From NCBI RefSeq assembly GCF_054482595.1, contig NZ_CM137008.1: a stretch of 64,000 nt of DNA, one strand, 5' to 3'. Of this stretch, positions 26,851 to 56,169 are shown piece by piece; the first letter of the stretch is position 1; each line of letters starts with the position of its first letter. Under the pieces are notes generated by a model, which saw only the letters and a list, made by a program, of their open reading frames with translations, did no database searches and was not told the DNA's origin. Position numbers and translations under genes: made by a program.

Positions 26851-29646
26851 ATGGAGATAATTATGAGAAACCTCTGTTTCTTACTGACGTTAGTGGCAAC
26901 TCTGTTGCTCCCCGGGCGGCTGATTGCCGCCGCCTTACCGCAGGATGAAAAGTTAATTACCGGGCAATTGGACAATGGCTTGCGATATATGATTTATCCG
27001 CATGCTCATCCAAAGGATCAGGTAAATTTATGGCTGCAAATTCATACCGGTTCATTGCAGGAAGAAGACAATGAGCGCGGCGTGGCTCATTTTGTAGAAC
27101 ATATGATGTTTAACGGCACAAAAACATGGCCGGGTAATAAAGTCATCGAAACATTTGAGTCAATGGGCCTGCGTTTTGGTCGCGATGTTAATGCCTATAC
27201 CAGCTATGACGAAACGGTGTATCAGGTGAGTTTGCCAACTACGCAGAAACAAAATCTGCAACAAGTGATGGCAATCTTCAGTGAATGGAGTAATGCCGCA
27301 ACCTTTGAAAAACTCGAAGTAGACGCTGAACGCGGCGTAATTACTGAGGAATGGCGTGCCCATCAGGATGCGAAATGGCGCACCTCTCAGGCGCGCCGCC
27401 CTTTCCTGCTGGCTAATACCCGTAATTTAGACCGTGAACCTATCGGCCTGATGGATACTGTCGCCACGGTCACACCGGCACAATTGCGCCAATTTTATCA
27501 ACGCTGGTATCAACCAAATAATATGACCTTTATCGTGGTTGGCGATATCGACAGTAAAGAAGCGCTGGCGCTGATAAAGGATAATTTAAGTAAGCTTCCG
27601 GCTAACAAAGCAGCTGAAAATCGCGTCTGGCCGACAAAAGCCGAAAACCACCTGCGCTTTAATATCATTAATGATAAAGAAAACCGGGTGAACGGCATCG
27701 CACTCTATTATCGCCTGCCAATGGTACAAGTGAACGATGAGCAAAGCTTTATCGAACAAGCTGAATGGAGCATGTTAGTTCAGCTGTTCAATCAACGTCT
27801 GCAGGAACGTATACAGTCGGGCGAGTTGAAGACTATTTCTGGCGGCACTGCGCGCAGCGTTAAAATTGCACCCGATTATCAGTCGCTGTTTTTCCGTGTA
27901 AATGCACGAGACGATAATATGCAGGATGCTGCGAATGCATTAATGGCAGAGTTGGCAACCATTGATCAGCATGGTTTTTCTGCTGAAGAACTCGATGATG
28001 TCAAATCTACCCGCCTCACCTGGCTGAAAAATGCGGTTGATCAGCAAGCTGAACGTGATTTACGTATGCTGACCAGTCGCCTGGCATCCAGCTCATTAAA
28101 TAATACGCCGTTCTTGTCGCCGGAAGAGACATATCAACTTTCGAAACGTCTGTGGCAGCAAATTACCGTGCAAAGTCTGGCGGAAAAATGGCAGCAGTTA
28201 AGAAAGAACCAGGACGCATTTTGGGAGCAAATGGTAAACAATGAGGTTGCCGCAAAAAAAGCATTGTCTCCTGCGGCTATCCTGGCGCTGGAAAAAGAGT
28301 ACGCCAACAAAAAGCTGGCGGCTTACATCTTCCCAGGCAGAAATTTATCGTTAACAGTAGACGCTGACCCACAGGCGGAAATTAGCAGCAAAGAAACGCT
28401 GGCTGAGAATCTGACATCATTAACACTTTCCAATGGTGCCAGGGTTATTCTGGCAAAATCCGCGGGTGAAGAGCAAAAGCTACAAATTATTGCCGTATCG
28501 AATAAAGGCGATTTAAGTTTCCCTGCGCAGCAAAAATCACTTATCGCGCTGGCAAATAAAGCAGTTAGCGGAAGCGGCGTTGGCGAACTCTCCTCTTCCA
28601 GCCTGAAACGCTGGAGTGCGGAAAACTCGGTAACCATGAGCAGTAAAGTCAGTGGCATGAATACGTTGCTCTCCGTTAGCGCGCGGACTAATAACCCTGA
28701 ACCTGGTTTCCAGTTGATTAACCAGCGAATCACCCACAGCACGATTAACGACAATATTTGGGCATCGCTACAAAATGCTCAAATTCAGGCGTTGAAAACG
28801 CTCGACCAGCGTCCAGCGGAGAAATTCGCCCAGCAGATGTATGAGACGCGCTATGCTGATGACCGCACGAAATTACTGCAAGAAAATCAGATTGCACAGT
28901 TTACTGCCGCAGATGCGCTGGCTGCCGATCGCCAGTTGTTTTCATCTCCAGCGGATATCACGTTTGTCATTGTCGGTAATGTCGCAGAAGACAAACTCAT
29001 GGCGTTAATTACGCGTTACTTAGGCTCAATCAAACACTCTGATTCGCCATTAGCCGCAGGTAAACCATTAACTCGCGCGACGGACAACGCATCGGTTACT
29101 GTAAAGGAACAAAATGAACCCGTGGCACAGGTTTCACAGTGGAAGCGTTATGATTCCCGGACACCTGTTAATCTGGCGACGCGTATGGCGCTCGATGCTT
29201 TTAACGTCGCACTGGCAAAAGATCTACGCGTTAATATTCGTGAACAGGCATCTGGGGCATACAGCGTTTCTTCTCGCCTCTCGGTTGATCCTCAGGCCAA
29301 AGATATCAGTCATTTGCTGGCTTTTACTTGTCAACCAGAACGACATGATGAACTGTTAACGTTAGCGAATGAAGTGATGGTTAAGCGTCTGGCTAAAGGG
29401 ATCAGTGAGCAAGAACTGAACGAATACCAGCAAAACGTTCAGCGCAGCCTCGATATCCAACAGCGTAGCGTTCAACAATTAGCGAACACTATTGTAAATA
29501 GTCTTATTCAATATGACGATCCTGCAGCATGGACTGAGCAGGAGCAATTGTTGAAACAAATGACGGTAGAGAATGTTAACACTGCCGTTAAACAATATCT
29601 TTCTCATCCGGTAAATACTTATACCGGAGTATTATTGCCTAAATAA
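26851..29646 (+). CDS. pqqL: Periplasmic M16-family zinc metallopeptidase (931 aa)
   Basis: Signal peptide; inverted zinc-binding motif HxxEH (HFVEH). Confidence 0.9.
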   Translation: MEIIMRNLCFLLTLVATLLLPGRLIAAALPQDEKLITGQLDNGLRYMIYPHAHPKDQVNLWLQIHTGSLQEEDNERGVAHFVEHMMFNGTKTWPGNKVIETFESMGLRFGRDVNAYTSYDETVYQVSLPTTQKQNLQQVMAIFSEWSNAATFEKLEVDAERGVITEEWRAHQDAKWRTSQARRPFLLANTRNLDREPIGLMDTVATVTPAQLRQFYQRWYQPNNMTFIVVGDIDSKEALALIKDNLSKLPANKAAENRVWPTKAENHLRFNIINDKENRVNGIALYYRLPMVQVNDEQSFIEQAEWSMLVQLFNQRLQERIQSGELKTISGGTARSVKIAPDYQSLFFRVNARDDNMQDAANALMAELATIDQHGFSAEELDDVKSTRLTWLKNAVDQQAERDLRMLTSRLASSSLNNTPFLSPEETYQLSKRLWQQITVQSLAEKWQQLRKNQDAFWEQMVNNEVAAKKALSPAAILALEKEYANKKLAAYIFPGRNLSLTVDADPQAEISSKETLAENLTSLTLSNGARVILAKSAGEEQKLQIIAVSNKGDLSFPAQQKSLIALANKAVSGSGVGELSSSSLKRWSAENSVTMSSKVSGMNTLLSVSARTNNPEPGFQLINQRITHSTINDNIWASLQNAQIQALKTLDQRPAEKFAQQMYETRYADDRTKLLQENQIAQFTAADALAADRQLFSSPADITFVIVGNVAEDKLMALITRYLGSIKHSDSPLAAGKPLTRATDNASVTVKEQNEPVAQVSQWKRYDSRTPVNLATRMALDAFNVALAKDLRVNIREQASGAYSVSSRLSVDPQAKDISHLLAFTCQPERHDELLTLANEVMVKRLAKGISEQELNEYQQNVQRSLDIQQRSVQQLANTIVNSLIQYDDPAAWTEQEQLLKQMTVENVNTAVKQYLSHPVNTYTGVLLPK

Positions 29647-51436: not shown

Positions 51437-54400
51437 TTACGCCTTCTCGATGTTGACTAAGAACGCTTTATATTCCGGCGTTTGCGAGTTTGCATCACCG
51501 ACATTCGGCGTCAGAGTGTTAGCGATATAACCTTTACGCGCGACACCCTCAAAGCCCCAGTGGATTGGAATACCCACCGTTTCAACCTGCTGACCATTTA
51601 CATTCAGTGGTTTCAGACGACGCGTTACCACAGCCACCGCGCGGATAAAGCCACGCTTGCTTGAGACAGTGACACGATCGCCATTATTAATGCCTTTCGC
51701 CGCCGCCAGCGTTTCGCTGATTTCCACAAACTGTTCCGGCTGAGCAATTGCGTTGAGCAATGCGTGCTTGGTCCAGGTGTGGAAGTGCTCGGTCAGACGA
51801 TAGGTCGTACCCACATACGGGAACTGCTCTTTTTTACCCATCCGCAGTGCGTCTTGTTCATACAGACGAACAACCGGGTTAGACACCACGTTCGGATGCA
51901 GCGGGTTAGTGCCCAGCGGCGTTTCAATCGGCTCGTAGTGTTCCGGGAACGGACCTTCCGCCATTTTGTTGATGGCAAACAGGCGTCCCATCCCTTCCGG
52001 CTGCATGATAAACGGCCCGGTTGGCGTACCCGGTGCGGCATTGCCGAAGTCAGGAATATCGTTACCCGTCCACTTGCTGCCGTTCCACTGGATCAGCATC
52101 CGTTTCGGATCCCACGGTTTACCGTTGATATCCGCCGAAGCACGGTTGTACAGCACGCGACGGTTGAGCGGCCACGCCCAGGCCCATCCCAGCGTATTCC
52201 CCAGACCGGACGGGTCGGAGTTATCGCGGTTAGCCATCTGGTTGCCCTGCTCTGTCCAGCTACCGGTGTAGATCCAGCAAGAAGATGCGGTTGTACCGTC
52301 ATCACGCAGATGCGCAAAGCTACTCAGCAACTGACCTTTCTTCGCAATCAGCACGCCATTAGCATCATAGAGATCTTCCAGCGCATAGCCGTTGTTCTCT
52401 TTAGCTACTTCGTCAGATTGCGGTTCGTGCGGCTGCTTGTAGTTCCAGCTCATCTTCATCAGCGGTTCTACGCCTTTACCACCTTCGGCCTGGTACAGCT
52501 CGCGCAGGTGATGGTAGATACCCGCCAGAATTTCACCGTCGTTACGCGCTTCGCCCGGCGCATCCTGACCTTTCCAGTGCCACTGCAGCCAGCGACCGGA
52601 GTTAGCAATAGAACCATCTTCTTCAGCAAAGCAGGTCGAAGGCAGACGGAATACTTCAGTCTGAATAGACGCCGGATCGACATCGTTCGACTCGCCGTGG
52701 TTCTGCCAGAAGGTTGAGGTTTCAGTCACCAGCGGATCGATAACCACCATGTACTTCAGCTTGCTTAGGCAGCTCACCACTTTGTTTTTGTCCGGGAAGG
52801 ACGCAACCGGGTTAAAGCCCTGGCAGAAATAACCGGTGACTTTGCCTTCATCCATCATGTTGAAATACTTGATGACGTCGTAGGTCTGGTCCCACTTCGG
52901 CAGCCAGTCATAGCCCCAGTTGTTCTCTTTCTGCGCGGCATCGCCATAGAAAGATTTCATCAGGCTAACGAAGAACTTCGGATAGTTGCTCCAGTAGTTC
53001 ACCTGACCAGCCAGCGTCGCTTTCGGCGTGTTCGCTTCCAGATACGACTGCAAATCAACCTGTTTTTCTGACGGCAGCGTCAGATAACCTGGCAGGCTGG
53101 TAGAGAGCAGACCTAAGTCAGTCAGACCCTGAATGTTGGAGTGACCACGCAATGCATTCACGCCGCCACCGGCCATACCCATGTTACCGAGCAGCAACTG
53201 GATCATCGCCATAGTACGGATGTTCTGCGCACCCACGGTGTGCTGCGTCCAGCCCAGCGCGTACAGGAAGGTGGTTGTGCGATTCGGTGCGCTGGTGGAG
53301 GCCAGCACTTCACACACTTTCAGGAAGTCGGCTTTTGGCGTACCACAGATGTTTTCAACAACGTCCGGCGTGTAGCGGGAAACGTGCGCTTTCAGCAGGT
53401 TCCACACACAGCGCGGATGAGTCAGTGTTTCATCGCGTTTCGCATAGCCGTTTTCATCGAACTGATAGTTCCAGGACGATTTATCGTATTGCCGTTTTTC
53501 AGCGTCGTAGCCGCTGAACAGACCGTCTTCGAAAGCAAAATCATCACGCACCAGCAGGCTGGCGTTGGTGTAATGCTTAACGTATTCGGCGTTGATTTTG
53601 TCGTTTTCGATCAGGTAGCGCAAAACGCCAGACAGGAACGTAATGTCCGTACCGGAACGAATAGGTGCGTAAATATCCGCCACAGAAGCGGTACGCGTAA
53701 AACGAGGATCGACAACGATCAAGGTTGCATCGTTGTTGTTTTTCGCTTCCATCGCCCAGCGGAAACCGACGGGATGCGCTTCAGCAGCGTTACCGCCCAT
53801 TACCATTACGACGTTAGCGTTTTTGATATCCACCCAGTGGTTGGTCATCGCACCGCGACCAAATGTTGGAGCAAGACTTGCTACCGTTGGTCCGTGTCAG
53901 ACGCGCGCCTGGTTGTCTACCGCCAGCATCCCGAGGGAGCGGGCAAATTTCTGTGTCAGCATCCCGGTTTCGTTGCTGGCACCGGAGGCACACAGCATAC
54001 CGGTAGAAAGCCAACGGTTTACCGTTACGCCCTGCTCGTTCTTTTCAATAAAGTTAGCGTCACGGTCAGCTTTCATCAGCTTTGCAATACGGGAGAATGC
54101 TTCTTCCCAGCTAATGCGCTGCCATTTGTCAGAACCTGGCGCACGATATTCCGGGTAGCGCAGACGGTTTTCGCTGTTGACGTAATCCAGCAAACCGGCC
54201 CCTTTTGGGCACAGCGCACCACGGCTTACCGGATGATCCGGGTCACCTTCAATGTGATAAATCGCTTCTCTGGCGTTTTTCGCGCCATCACCCAGGCTAT
54301 ACATCAATAGCCCGCAACCTACGGAACAGTATGTGCAGGTGTTACGGATCTCTTTAGCGCGTAATAATTTGTAGTTTCGCGCCTGAGCCAGTGCTTGCTT

Positions 54401-54484
54401 CGGGGCAAAGCCCAATGCCGCTACCGTTGTTCCAGCCATACCGCCCGCGCAGATTTTAAAAAATTGTCTGCGACTGACGTCCAT
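51437..54484 (-). CDS. fdnG: Formate dehydrogenase-N alpha subunit, selenoprotein (1015 aa) with in-frame UGA (Sec) at codon 196 (plus-strand 53897-53899)
   Basis: Track ORFs 53897-54484 and 51437-53848 are in the same frame, separated only by one TGA; N-terminal Tat motif SRRQFFK; molybdopterin domains. Confidence 0.92.
53855..53896 (-). other. Candidate SECIS stem-loop directly 3-prime of the fdnG UGA
   Basis: mRNA segment immediately after UGA contains the hairpin GCAAGUCUUGC at the position expected for a bacterial SECIS. Confidence 0.55.
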
Positions 54485-54548
54485 TGCTTTCCTCTTTTTT
54501 CAGGGGTATTACTGCGCGAGGAAACTAACAGTAAAATTCTGAATCTTT

Positions 54549-54625
54549 TTGCGCGAAATCAAAAAGAACACGTGTTTGCCACAAAATAATCCGCCTGCGC
54601 AAATTGACCTACCTCAATAGCGGTA
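54549..54625 (-). promoter_or_regulatory. fdnG promoter region: FNR-like site (TTGCGCGAAATCAA, approx 54549-54562) and NarL 7-2-7 heptamer pair (TACCTCA-AT-AGCGGTA, approx 54610-54625)
   Basis: Matches to TTGAT-N4-ATCAA and TACYYMT consensus in the fdnG/yddG divergent intergenic region. Confidence 0.5.
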
Positions 54626-54715
54626 GAAAAACGCACCACTGCCTGACAGGCCAGTTAAAAAAATGCTATAAAATTCAGCTTAATTTTTAACGGCAAGAGA
54701 GACAAAACAGCGAGC

Positions 54716-55597
54716 ATGACACGACAAAAAGCAACGCTCATAGGGCTAATAGCGATCGTCCTGTGGAGCACGATGGTAGGATTGATTCGCGGTGTCAGCG
54801 AGGGGCTCGGCCCGGTCGGCGGCGCAGCTGCTATCTATTCATTAAGCGGGCTGCTGTTAATCTTCACGGTTGGATTTCCGCGTATTCGGCAGATTCCGAA
54901 AGGCTATTTACTCGCCGGGAGTCTGTTATTCGTCAGCTATGAAATCTGTCTGGCGCTTTCCTTAGGGTATGCGGCGACCCGTCATCAGGCGATTGAAGTG
55001 GGTATGGTGAACTATCTATGGCCCAGCCTGACAATTCTCTTTGCCATTCTGTTTAATGGTCAGAAAACCAACTGGCTGATTGTACCAGGATTATTATTAG
55101 CCCTGGTCGGCGTCTGCTGGGTGTTAGGCGGTGATAATGGGTTACATTATGATGAAATCATCAATAATATTACCACCAGCCCATTGAGTTATTTCCTGGC
55201 GTTTATTGGTGCGTTTATCTGGGCAGCCTATTGCACAGTAACGAATAAATACGCACGCGGATTTAACGGAATTACCGTTTTTGTCCTGCTAACGGGAGCA
55301 AGTCTGTGGGTTTACTATTTTCTCACGCCACAACCAGAAATGGTATTTAGCACGCCCGTCATGATTAAACTCATCTCTGCGGCATTTACCTTAGGATTTG
55401 CTTATGCTGCATGGAATGTCGGTATATTGCATGGCAATGTCACCATAATGGCGGTAGGCTCGTATTTTACACCTGTACTTTCCTCAGCGCTTGCAGCCGT
55501 GCTGCTCAGCGCCCCACTGTCGTTCTCGTTCTGGCAAGGCGCGCTAATGGTCTGCGGCGGTTCCCTGCTCTGCTGGCTGGCGACACGTCGTGGTTAA
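54716..55597 (+). CDS. yddG: DMT-family aromatic amino acid exporter (293 aa)
   Basis: 10-TM EamA-like membrane protein of expected length. Confidence 0.88.
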   Translation: MTRQKATLIGLIAIVLWSTMVGLIRGVSEGLGPVGGAAAIYSLSGLLLIFTVGFPRIRQIPKGYLLAGSLLFVSYEICLALSLGYAATRHQAIEVGMVNYLWPSLTILFAILFNGQKTNWLIVPGLLLALVGVCWVLGGDNGLHYDEIINNITTSPLSYFLAFIGAFIWAAYCTVTNKYARGFNGITVFVLLTGASLWVYYFLTPQPEMVFSTPVMIKLISAAFTLGFAYAAWNVGILHGNVTIMAVGSYFTPVLSSALAAVLLSAPLSFSFWQGALMVCGGSLLCWLATRRG

Positions 55598-55602
55598 AAT
55601 AA

Positions 55603-55626
55603 TTGCCGGGTCTACGGCCCGGCAGT
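55603..55626 (+). terminator. Hairpin after yddG (TGCCGGG...CCCGGCA)
   Basis: 7-bp perfect stem directly after the stop. Confidence 0.4.
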
Positions 55627-55855
55627 TAATCAGATAAATTCCGACAATATTAAAAAATAAATTTCAAATACCAGTAATTCACCTTATATCTCATTTCGAC
55701 TTCGATCACATATCGATAAATAATATTATTTCATCTATTTTTCTCATTGTTTTTAATCACCATTCTATTTTAAAAACAGTATGTCATTTATAAATGACGC
55801 CGTTTAAAATTCGTTTAGAAAATACGTTTAACGATAATTAAAAGGATTCTGTTAA

Positions 55856-56146
55856 ATGAAATTAAAAATAGTTGCGGTGGTTGTAACTGGTTTGTTAGCT
55901 GCGAACGTAGCACACGCTGCCGAAGTCTATAACAAGGATGGTAATAAACTCGACCTTTATGGCAAGGTTACCGCTCTACGTTATTTTACTGATGATAAGC
56001 GTGAAGATGGTGATAAAACTTATGCCCGTCTCGGCTTTAAAGGAGAAACGCAAATCAATGATCAAATGATTGGTTTTGGTCACTGGGAATATGATTTTAA
56101 AGGCTATAACGATGAAGCCAACGGCTCGCGCGGCAAGAATCTCTGA
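55856..56146 (+). pseudogene. yddL: OmpC/PhoE-type porin N-terminal fragment (96 codons)
   Basis: Translation [38 protein letters not shown]... is a porin signal peptide and first strands, then terminates. Confidence 0.75.
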
Positions 56147-56169
56147 TTGAGTTAAGTGCCCATCACAAT

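What the first reader, a model, noticed from the sequence alone, without database searches (positions are those of the whole stretch)
54485..54715. Divergent fdnG/yddG intergenic region carries anaerobic and nitrate control sites
An FNR-like half-palindrome (TTGCGCGAAATCAA) and a NarL 7-2-7 inverted heptamer pair (TACCTCA-AT-AGCGGTA) lie about 65 bp and 130 bp upstream of the fdnG start codon respectively. This spacing is consistent with the FNR site at about -42 and a NarL site near -100 described for fdnG.
Basis: partly seen in the sequence, partly recalled or inferred. Interest (0 to 1): 0.3.

Follow-up and report, generated by a model that had tools for sequence, protein, structure and literature searches.

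The report
Known fdnG anaerobic/nitrate control region

Summary
The window is E. coli chromosome. The 231-bp gap 54485-54715 separates fdnG (- strand) from yddG (+ strand) and differs from K-12 MG1655 at 3 bases, none inside a site.

Both motifs are present: TTGCGCGAAATCAA at 54549-54562 and TACCTCA-AT-AGCGGTA at 54610-54625.

A single transcription start, 54513, places the first motif at -42.5 and the two heptamers at -100 and -109. It also places further heptamer-like sequences at -77 and -124. This is the published map of the fdnG control region.

Motif matching alone is no better than chance. The real evidence is conservation: in 62 distinct orthologous gaps from Enterobacteriaceae, the weak FNR site, the 7-2-7 repeat, a -10 block and their spacings are all kept.

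Verdict: observation confirmed, interpretation supported, already known, low interest.

It overlaps the -100 NarL heptamer, is the site a published ChIP-seq study assigned to this gap, and occurs only in Escherichia. Its role is unknown.

The parts
51437..54484 (-). fdnG coding sequence (formate dehydrogenase-N alpha subunit). ATG at 54482-54484, in-frame UGA selenocysteine codon at 53897-53899.
   Evidence: ORFs 53897..54484 and 51437..53848; RefSeq annotation of identical DNA; UGA read directly; SECIS_3 match at 53844-53902, 84 bits.
54485..54513 (-). Inferred 29-nt fdnG leader, running from the inferred start at 54513 (A on the fdnG strand) to the ATG. The Shine-Dalgarno GAGGA is at 54490-54494.
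   Evidence: The start is inferred, not mapped here. It is the only position that reconciles all published site coordinates with the sequence. Leader length varies from 33 to 182 nt between the -10 block and the ATG across orthologs, as expected for transcribed but unconstrained sequence.
54522..54530 (-). Likely extended -10 element of the fdnG promoter: TGtTAGTTT on the fdnG strand, with the hexamer at -14 to -9.
   Evidence: The block GAAACTAACAG (54520-54531) is nearly invariant in 62 orthologs. Its distance to the FNR site is 27 bp in 58 of 62. Assigning it as the -10 is my reading of the sequence.
54549..54562 (.). The left half is weak and the right half is consensus.
   Evidence: 10.3 bits, rank 11. 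Present as TTGCGnnAAATCAA in 62 of 62 orthologs. Exact in 5406 of the 5426 E. coli genomes searched. Published position -42.5 (PMC3349551).
54587..54593 (+). Accessory NarL heptamer at -77: TAATCCG, 5 of 7 matches to TACYYMT.
   Evidence: Coordinate reconstruction and published position. It lies in a strongly conserved block, consensus CTTAATAGTC at 54583-54592, from which E. coli itself deviates.
54604..54617 (.). Second FNR-like site: TTGACCTACCTCAA, centre 54610.5, which is -97.5. It overlaps the -100 NarL heptamer by 8 bp.
   Evidence: Best FNR weight-matrix score in the whole window: 15.6 bits, with 0.08 expected per 64 kb. It is the site listed for yddG/fdnG in Myers 2013 Table S6, at 1545292, which maps to window 54604-54617. 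It is absent outside four Escherichia sequences. It is exact in 5357 E. coli genomes.
54610..54625 (.). NarL/NarP 7-2-7 site. Heptamer -100 is TACCTCA (54610-54616). Heptamer -109 is AGCGGTA (54619-54625, inverted). The centre is at -104.5.
   Evidence: The aligned position in 62 orthologs keeps a mean of 6.0 and 5.6 of 7 matches to TACYYMT in the two halves. It keeps 4.35 of 7 palindromic pairs against 1.7 for background, with 50 distinct 16-mers. The spacing to the FNR site is 61 bp in 59 of 62. fdnG is listed among genes with a reported 7-2-7 site.
54634..54640 (+). Accessory NarL heptamer at -124: CACCACT, 5 of 7 matches.
   Evidence: Coordinate reconstruction and published position. Not conserved across genera.
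54643..54672 (+). Predicted yddG promoter: -35-like CTGACA (54643-54648), an 18-bp spacer, and extended -10 TGCTATAAA (54664-54672).
   Evidence: The extended -10 is nearly invariant in 62 orthologs. The anaerobic sigma-70 ChIP-seq peak at 1545240 in Myers 2013 Table S1 maps to window 54669. The consensus scan missed this promoter because its hexamer ends in A.
54716..55597 (+). yddG coding sequence (aromatic amino acid exporter), transcribed divergently from fdnG.
   Evidence: ORF; RefSeq annotation. The divergent yddG-fdnG arrangement is kept in 63 Enterobacteriaceae loci.

Best explanation
This is the known control region of the E. coli fdnGHI operon. It acts as a promoter that requires both absence of oxygen and presence of nitrate.

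RNA polymerase uses a promoter with an extended -10 (TGtTAGTTT) and no usable -35. An FNR dimer, active only without oxygen, binds the weak site TTGCGCGAAATCAA centred at -42.5. From there it activates as a class II activator, overlapping the -35 position. Because that site is weak, FNR alone gives little expression.

Phosphorylated NarL, formed when nitrate is sensed, binds the 7-2-7 inverted repeat at -100/-109 as a dimer, helped by single heptamers at -77 and -124. It then raises transcription strongly. NarP can bind the same 7-2-7.

What is shown here:
- The sequences are present.
- They agree exactly with the published coordinates.
- The sites and their spacing are conserved across genera.

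What is taken from the literature:
- That FNR and NarL bind here.
- That expression depends on both.

What is inferred:
- The -10 assignment.
- That the conserved weakness of the FNR site is what makes the promoter depend on NarL.
- That the fixed 62-bp centre-to-centre distance (about 5.9 helical turns) keeps NarL and FNR on one face of the DNA.
For: - The window is E. coli, and the gap differs from MG1655 at 3 of 231 bases, all outside the sites.
- The published map has FNR at -42.5 and NarL heptamers at -77, -100, -109 and -124 (PMC3349551). Only a start at 54513 satisfies all five positions.
- fdnG is listed among four genes with a reported 7-2-7 site (PMC2718512).
- FNR ChIP peaks fall in this gap (Grainger 2007; Myers 2013). 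Myers lists fdnG among operons with an FNR peak but no FNR-dependent expression change in glucose minimal medium, noting it as 'Activated by FNR in NO3- and by NarL'.
- Federowicz 2014 reports an Fnr ChIP-chip signal of 6.2 under fermentation against 106.7 with nitrate, with fdnGHI activated.
- Across 62 distinct orthologous gaps from many Enterobacteriaceae genera, the FNR site is present in 62 of 62 and keeps the same weak TTGCG half in 59. The -10 to FNR spacing is 27 bp in 58 of 62. The FNR to 7-2-7 spacing is 61 bp in 59 of 62. The 7-2-7 keeps its pattern through 50 sequence variants.
- The FNR site is exact in 5406 of the 5426 E. coli genomes searched, while a 14-nt control spacer is exact in 5073.
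Against: - The -42.5 FNR site is a poor match. It scores 10.3 bits, below all 61 ChIP-seq-supported training sites (minimum 11.6), and 4.4 equally good sites are expected by chance per 64 kb.
- The published ChIP-seq summit maps to window 54600. That is 44.5 bp from this site but only 10.5 bp from the stronger upstream site.
- I could not read the primary footprinting and start-mapping papers or find independent start-site data. The start at 54513 is therefore reconstructed, not observed.
- A simple sigma-70 scan finds no promoter in the gap.
Confidence: 0.93

Rival explanations
1. In E. coli a second FNR dimer also binds the strong upstream site TTGACCTACCTCAA at -97.5. This would make a tandem-FNR promoter in which upstream FNR and NarL/NarP compete for, or cooperate on, overlapping DNA, since 8 bp are shared with the -100 heptamer. 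It adds to the classical model rather than replacing it.
For: - It is the best FNR weight-matrix hit in the 64-kb window: 15.6 bits, above the training median of 14.8, with 0.08 expected by chance.
- Myers 2013 Table S6 lists it as a predicted site at a ChIP-seq peak with no overlap with nucleoid-protein enrichment.
- The ChIP-seq summit lies 10.5 bp from its centre.
- It is exact in 5357 E. coli genomes, against 5073 for a control spacer.
- It lies 55 bp from the -42.5 site.
Against: - It is absent from every non-Escherichia ortholog, so it is not part of the conserved mechanism.
- The ChIP-seq assignment was computational: the best matrix score within 200 bp of the summit.
- Summit-to-site offsets of 42-77 bp occur at 4 of 7 other peaks I could compare (fnr, fnrS, ydfZ, ynfE), so the summit cannot separate the two sites.
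- Its conservation within E. coli cannot be separated from that of the NarL heptamer it overlaps.
- I found no published footprint or mutation for it.
Confidence: 0.3
2. The upstream site at -97.5, not the reader's site, is the FNR site that activates fdnG. On this view the reader's motif is a chance match.
For: It has a much better matrix score and lies nearer the ChIP-seq summit.
Against:
- The published assignment is -42.5.
- A centre at -97.5 is not a position from which FNR is known to activate on its own (my own knowledge).
Confidence: 0.03
3. The 7-2-7 and nearby sites also, or instead, control the divergent yddG promoter. The 7-2-7 centre lies about 61-62 bp upstream of the predicted yddG start, which is a typical activator position.
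For: - The predicted yddG extended -10 is conserved and coincides with a sigma-70 ChIP-seq peak.
- The distance from the 7-2-7 to the yddG -10 stays within 53-57 bp in all 62 orthologs.
Against: - That distance varies more than the fdnG-side spacings do.
- Federowicz 2014 scores yddG as N/D for Fnr-dependent regulation under both conditions.
- The only paper that mentions both yddG and NarL is an unrelated Salmonella transcriptome study.
Confidence: 0.08
4. Both motifs are chance matches to degenerate consensus sequences and have no regulatory role.
For: Consensus-match counts in the window equal chance expectation. A better 7-2-7 match lies inside the pqqL coding sequence.
Against: The sites and spacings are conserved across genera in otherwise diverged sequence. 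They coincide exactly with five published coordinates. ChIP evidence places FNR in this gap.
Confidence: 0.01

Closest known systems
E. coli K-12 fdnGHI operon control region (Stewart and Gunsalus laboratories, 1992-2003)
   Same: It is the same locus. 228 of 231 intergenic bases are identical and every site is identical. FNR at -42.5 and NarL heptamers at -77, -100, -109 and -124 coincide with the sequence.
   Different: Nothing of substance. The three base differences at 54571, 54572 and 54597 fall between sites.
narGHJI promoter (FNR near -41.5 plus distant NarL sites and IHF)
   Same: It uses the same logic: a class II FNR site combined with upstream NarL-phosphate gives joint anaerobic and nitrate induction.
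   Different: According to PMC4549865, the narG NarL sites lie around -89 and -195, include no 7-2-7 pair, and work together with an IHF site. At fdnG a 7-2-7 pair sits at -104.5, and I found no IHF consensus between it and the FNR site.
7-2-7 NarL/NarP sites of nirB, nrfA and napF
   Same: They share the inverted TACYYMT heptamers with a 2-bp spacer, bound by NarL or NarP dimers. These genes are listed together with fdnG in PMC2718512.
   Different: The position differs. The napF and yeaR sites are centred near -44, whereas the fdnG pair is at -104.5, well upstream of the FNR site.
Tandem-FNR promoters such as yfiD (from my own knowledge; not checked against a paper here)
   Same: There are two FNR-like sites about 53-55 bp apart, one near -41 and one in the -90s. 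Myers Table S6 lists two yfiD sites 53 bp apart.
   Different: At fdnG the upstream site overlaps a NarL heptamer, is restricted to Escherichia, and has no demonstrated binding or effect.

Membership tests
Class II FNR-activated promoter | A 14-bp inverted repeat resembling TTGAT-N4-ATCAA | tested here: met
   TTGCGCGAAATCAA matches 8 of 10 specified positions. It is a weak match: 10.3 bits, below all 61 training sites.
Class II FNR-activated promoter | Site centred near -41.5 relative to the transcription start, with a -10 element at the matching distance | tested here: inconclusive
   The centre falls at -42.5 if the start is 54513. That start is reconstructed from published coordinates, not mapped here. 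A conserved TGtTAGTTT block lies 27 bp from the site. No start-site data could be retrieved.
Class II FNR-activated promoter | FNR occupies the region in vivo | tested here: met
   [quoted passage not shown] The resolution does not separate the two FNR-like sites.
Class II FNR-activated promoter | Anaerobic induction depends on FNR and on this site | not testable with these tools
   Stated in the literature. The primary mutational paper was not readable.
NarL/NarP 7-2-7 binding site | Two TACYYMT heptamers in inverted orientation separated by 2 bp | tested here: met
   TACCTCA-AT-AGCGGTA matches 6 of 7 in each half.
NarL/NarP 7-2-7 binding site | The pattern is retained under sequence turnover in orthologs | tested here: met
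   62 orthologs carry 50 distinct 16-mers. Mean matches are 6.0 and 5.6 of 7. Palindromic pairs number 4.35 of 7, against 0.9-2.5 when the frame is slid and 1.7 for background.
NarL/NarP 7-2-7 binding site | Bound by phosphorylated NarL or NarP and required for nitrate induction | not testable with these tools
   Reported for fdnG according to PMC2718512 and PMC3349551. The primary papers were not readable.
Tandem-FNR promoter | A second FNR site upstream that is occupied and alters expression | tested here: inconclusive
   A high-scoring site exists at -97.5 and lies under the ChIP-seq summit. However, the summit cannot resolve the two sites and no functional data were found.
Tandem-FNR promoter | The second site is conserved in related genera | tested here: not met
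   It is present only in 4 Escherichia sequences. Aligned positions in the other 58 orthologs score from -38.5 to +3.7 bits.

The most novel reading that the evidence does not exclude
Escherichia has acquired a second, high-affinity FNR site at -97.5 that shares 8 bp with the -100 NarL heptamer. On this reading FNR and NarL/NarP compete or cooperate on the same DNA and reshape how fdnG responds to nitrate or nitrite. This lineage-specific layer is not part of the classical model and is absent from other enterobacteria.
Probability: 0.25. Interest if true: 0.35.

Novelty: already known. Interest (0 to 1): 0.1.

Why it matters
It matters little as a discovery.

Three minor points are useful:
- The deliberately weak FNR half-site and the exact spacing of the sites are conserved across many genera. 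This fits the idea that weak FNR binding is what makes the promoter depend on NarL.
- The site a genome-wide ChIP-seq study assigned to this gap is not the classical site. It is a stronger, Escherichia-only site that overlaps a NarL heptamer, so anyone using such tables as ground truth for FNR sites should be aware of the discrepancy.
- Motif matching by itself was no better than chance here, which is a caution for scans of this type.

Tried and rejected
- **Sigma-70 and terminator scan of 54400-54800.** It found nothing. Both promoters are non-canonical, and the yddG hexamer TATAAA fails the scan's rule that the last base be T.
- **Rfam scan of 53700-55000.** It found no RNA element in the gap, only a chance mir-129 hit (E = 0.28) and the expected SECIS inside fdnG.
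- **Primary papers.** PMC180993, PMC206306 and PMC3068693 are not held. A search for '104.5' found nothing, and the MotifAdjuster supplements do not mention fdnG.
- **Independent start-site data.** PMC4288677 is not held. The Kim 2012 supplements hold only an ortholog table for these genes and no nearby coordinates.
- **Using the ChIP-seq summit to choose between the two FNR-like sites.** Rejected, because offsets of 42-77 bp between summit and best site occur at 4 of 7 other peaks I could compare.
- **The Federowicz motif tables S5 and S6.** They list the same ArcA-like 15-mer under both the ArcA and the Fnr headings, so they say nothing about FNR site choice.
- **A known-factor match for the conserved block CTTAATAGTC.** By eye I considered IHF, Fis, ArcA, Fur, ModE and OxyR. 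None was convincing, and a relaxed NarL heptamer (ACTATTA on the fdnG strand) is the best guess.

Full report
**What is there.** The region 54400-54800 is 100% identical to several complete E. coli chromosomes. RefSeq annotates it as fdnG (formate dehydrogenase-N alpha subunit) and yddG (aromatic amino acid exporter), and it is found in 5413 of 5426 genomes. fdnG runs on the minus strand from the ATG at 54484. It has an in-frame UGA at 53897-53899 followed by a SECIS element. yddG runs on the plus strand from 54716. The gap 54485-54715 is 231 bp and differs from K-12 MG1655 at three bases (54571, 54572, 54597), none inside any site discussed here. Published K-12 work therefore applies directly.

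**The observation.** Both motifs are present. TTGCGCGAAATCAA lies at 54549-54562, with its near edge 65 bp from the A of the ATG. TACCTCA-AT-AGCGGTA lies at 54610-54625, 126-141 bp from the ATG.

**Is it more than chance?** Motif matching alone says no.
- The FNR consensus with up to two mismatches occurs 51 times in the window against 40.6 expected.
- The 7-2-7 consensus with up to two mismatches occurs 4 times against 4.07 expected. The best match, with one mismatch, lies inside the pqqL coding sequence.
- I built a weight matrix from 61 FNR sites that lie under ChIP-seq peaks (Myers 2013 Table S6), leaving out the fdnG entry. That is rank 11 in the window, below every training site (minimum 11.6), and 4.4 equally good sites are expected per 64 kb.

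**Agreement with the published map.** PMC3349551 quotes the E. coli fdnG map as an FNR site at -42.5 and NarL heptamers at -77, -100, -109 and -124. I tried every start from 54505 to 54522. Only 54513 places the FNR motif at -42.5 and puts all four positions on heptamer-like sequences:

| Position | Sequence | Matches to TACYYMT |
|---|---|---|
| -77 | TAATCCG | 5 of 7 |
| -100 | TACCTCA | 6 of 7 |
| -109 | AGCGGTA (inverted) | 6 of 7 |
| -124 | CACCACT | 5 of 7 |

The total is 22 of 28, against at most 17 for any other start. fdnG is named among four genes with a reported 7-2-7 site (PMC2718512). The start itself is reconstructed, not observed. The primary papers and independent start-site data were not available.

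**Conservation.** The divergent yddG-fdnG arrangement is kept in 63 loci from Escherichia, Citrobacter, Salmonella, Klebsiella, Raoultella, Enterobacter, Leclercia, Lelliottia, Kluyvera, Kosakonia, Phytobacter and others. An alignment of 62 distinct gaps shows five conserved islands in otherwise diverged sequence:
- GAAACTAACAG at 54520-54531. On the fdnG strand this reads TGtTAGTTT, which I take to be an extended -10.
- The FNR site.
- A block with consensus CTTAATAGTC at 54583-54592.
- The 7-2-7 repeat.
- TGCTATAAA at 54664-54672, the likely yddG extended -10.

The FNR site is present in 62 of 62 and keeps the same weak TTGCG half in 59. The spacing from the -10 to the FNR site is 27 bp in 58 of 62, and from the FNR site to the 7-2-7 it is 61 bp in 59 of 62. 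The leader between the -10 and the ATG, by contrast, varies from 33 to 182 nt. The 7-2-7 position carries 50 different 16-mers yet keeps mean matches of 6.0 and 5.6 of 7 to TACYYMT. It also keeps 4.35 of 7 palindromic pairs, against 1.7 for other 16-mers in the same gaps. Within E. coli the 14-nt FNR site is exact in 5406 genomes, while a control spacer is exact in 5073.

**How it most likely works.** FNR, active without oxygen, binds the weak -42.5 site and activates a promoter that has an extended -10 but no -35. Phosphorylated NarL binds the 7-2-7 and the accessory heptamers and raises expression strongly. NarP can use the same 7-2-7. Published in vivo data fit this picture:
- Myers 2013 found an FNR peak here but no FNR-dependent expression change in glucose minimal medium without nitrate, and lists fdnG as 'Activated by FNR in NO3- and by NarL'.
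- Federowicz 2014 reports an Fnr ChIP-chip signal of 6.2 under fermentation and 106.7 with nitrate, with fdnGHI activated.

Two steps are my inference. First, the conserved weakness of the FNR site is what makes the promoter depend on NarL. Second, the fixed 62-bp centre-to-centre distance, about 5.9 helical turns, keeps the two proteins on one face of the DNA.

The best FNR weight-matrix match in the whole window is TTGACCTACCTCAA at 54604-54617, with 15.6 bits and 0.08 expected per 64 kb. It is centred at -97.5 and shares 8 bp with the -100 heptamer. It is the site that Myers 2013 Table S6 lists for yddG/fdnG. Their coordinate 1545292 maps exactly to this 14-mer, and their ChIP-seq summit 1545309 maps to window 54600. 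That summit is 10.5 bp from this site and 44.5 bp from the classical one.

Three points weaken the case for this site. The assignment was computational, taking the best score within 200 bp of the summit. Offsets of 42-77 bp occur at 4 of 7 other peaks I could compare. And the site is absent from all 58 non-Escherichia orthologs. I therefore treat it as a possible Escherichia-specific addition, not a replacement for the classical site.

**The yddG side.** The conserved TGCTATAAA coincides with an anaerobic sigma-70 ChIP-seq peak at 1545240, which maps to window 54669. The 7-2-7 centre lies about 61-62 bp upstream of the predicted yddG start. However, that spacing varies between 53 and 57 bp, and there is no evidence that nitrate or FNR controls yddG.

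**Verdict.** The feature is the already known fdnG control region, so interest is low.

Noticed in passing
window 54604-54617: TTGACCTACCTCAA is the strongest FNR-like site in the whole window. It overlaps the -100 NarL heptamer, is the site a published ChIP-seq study assigned to this gap, and occurs only in Escherichia sequences.
   Followed up: yes
window 54583-54592: A block with consensus CTTAATAGTC is as conserved across genera as the FNR site, yet E. coli itself reads CAAAATAATCC here. It coincides with the published -77 NarL heptamer, but its strict conservation is not explained.
   Followed up: partly
window 54643-54672: A predicted yddG promoter with a nearly invariant extended -10 (TGCTATAAA) coincides with a published anaerobic sigma-70 ChIP-seq peak that maps to 54669. 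The consensus promoter scan missed it.
   Followed up: partly
window 53844-53902 (- strand): A SECIS element (Rfam SECIS_3, 84 bits) lies directly downstream of the in-frame UGA at 53897-53899 in fdnG, as expected for this selenoprotein.
   Followed up: yes
L012, L022, L039, L056 (region between the fdnG -10 block and the ATG): The fdnG leader carries insertions in some genera. It is about 93 nt in several Citrobacter, 85 in Salmonella arizonae and diarizonae, 143 in Phytobacter diazotrophicus and 182 in Enterobacter wuhouensis, against 33-41 nt in most others. The nature of the inserts was not examined.
   Followed up: no
window 54654-54668: GTTAAAAAAATGCTA resembles an ArcA box and overlaps the yddG promoter. 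It is listed (as TAGCATTTTTTTAAC, 1545241-1545255) in the Federowicz 2014 motif tables, but fdnG/yddG is not in that paper's ArcA-bound region tables.
   Followed up: no
window 29616-29631: TACTTATACCGGAGTA matches the 7-2-7 consensus better (one mismatch) than the real fdnG site does, yet it lies inside the pqqL coding sequence. This shows that consensus matching alone is unreliable.
   Followed up: yes
window 58776-58789: GTGACGTTGATCAA is the second-best FNR matrix hit in the window. It corresponds to the Myers 2013 predicted site at 1541120 (upstream of narZ, within narU), which has no ChIP-seq peak and lies in H-NS- and Fis-enriched DNA.
   Followed up: partly
window 54613-56918: A published anaerobic H-NS ChIP-chip region (1542991-1545296) maps here. 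It covers yddG and ends at the 7-2-7 site.
   Followed up: no
window 54400-54800: Six of the matching places in complete E. coli genomes lie on records typed as plasmids rather than chromosomes. This was not examined.
   Followed up: no
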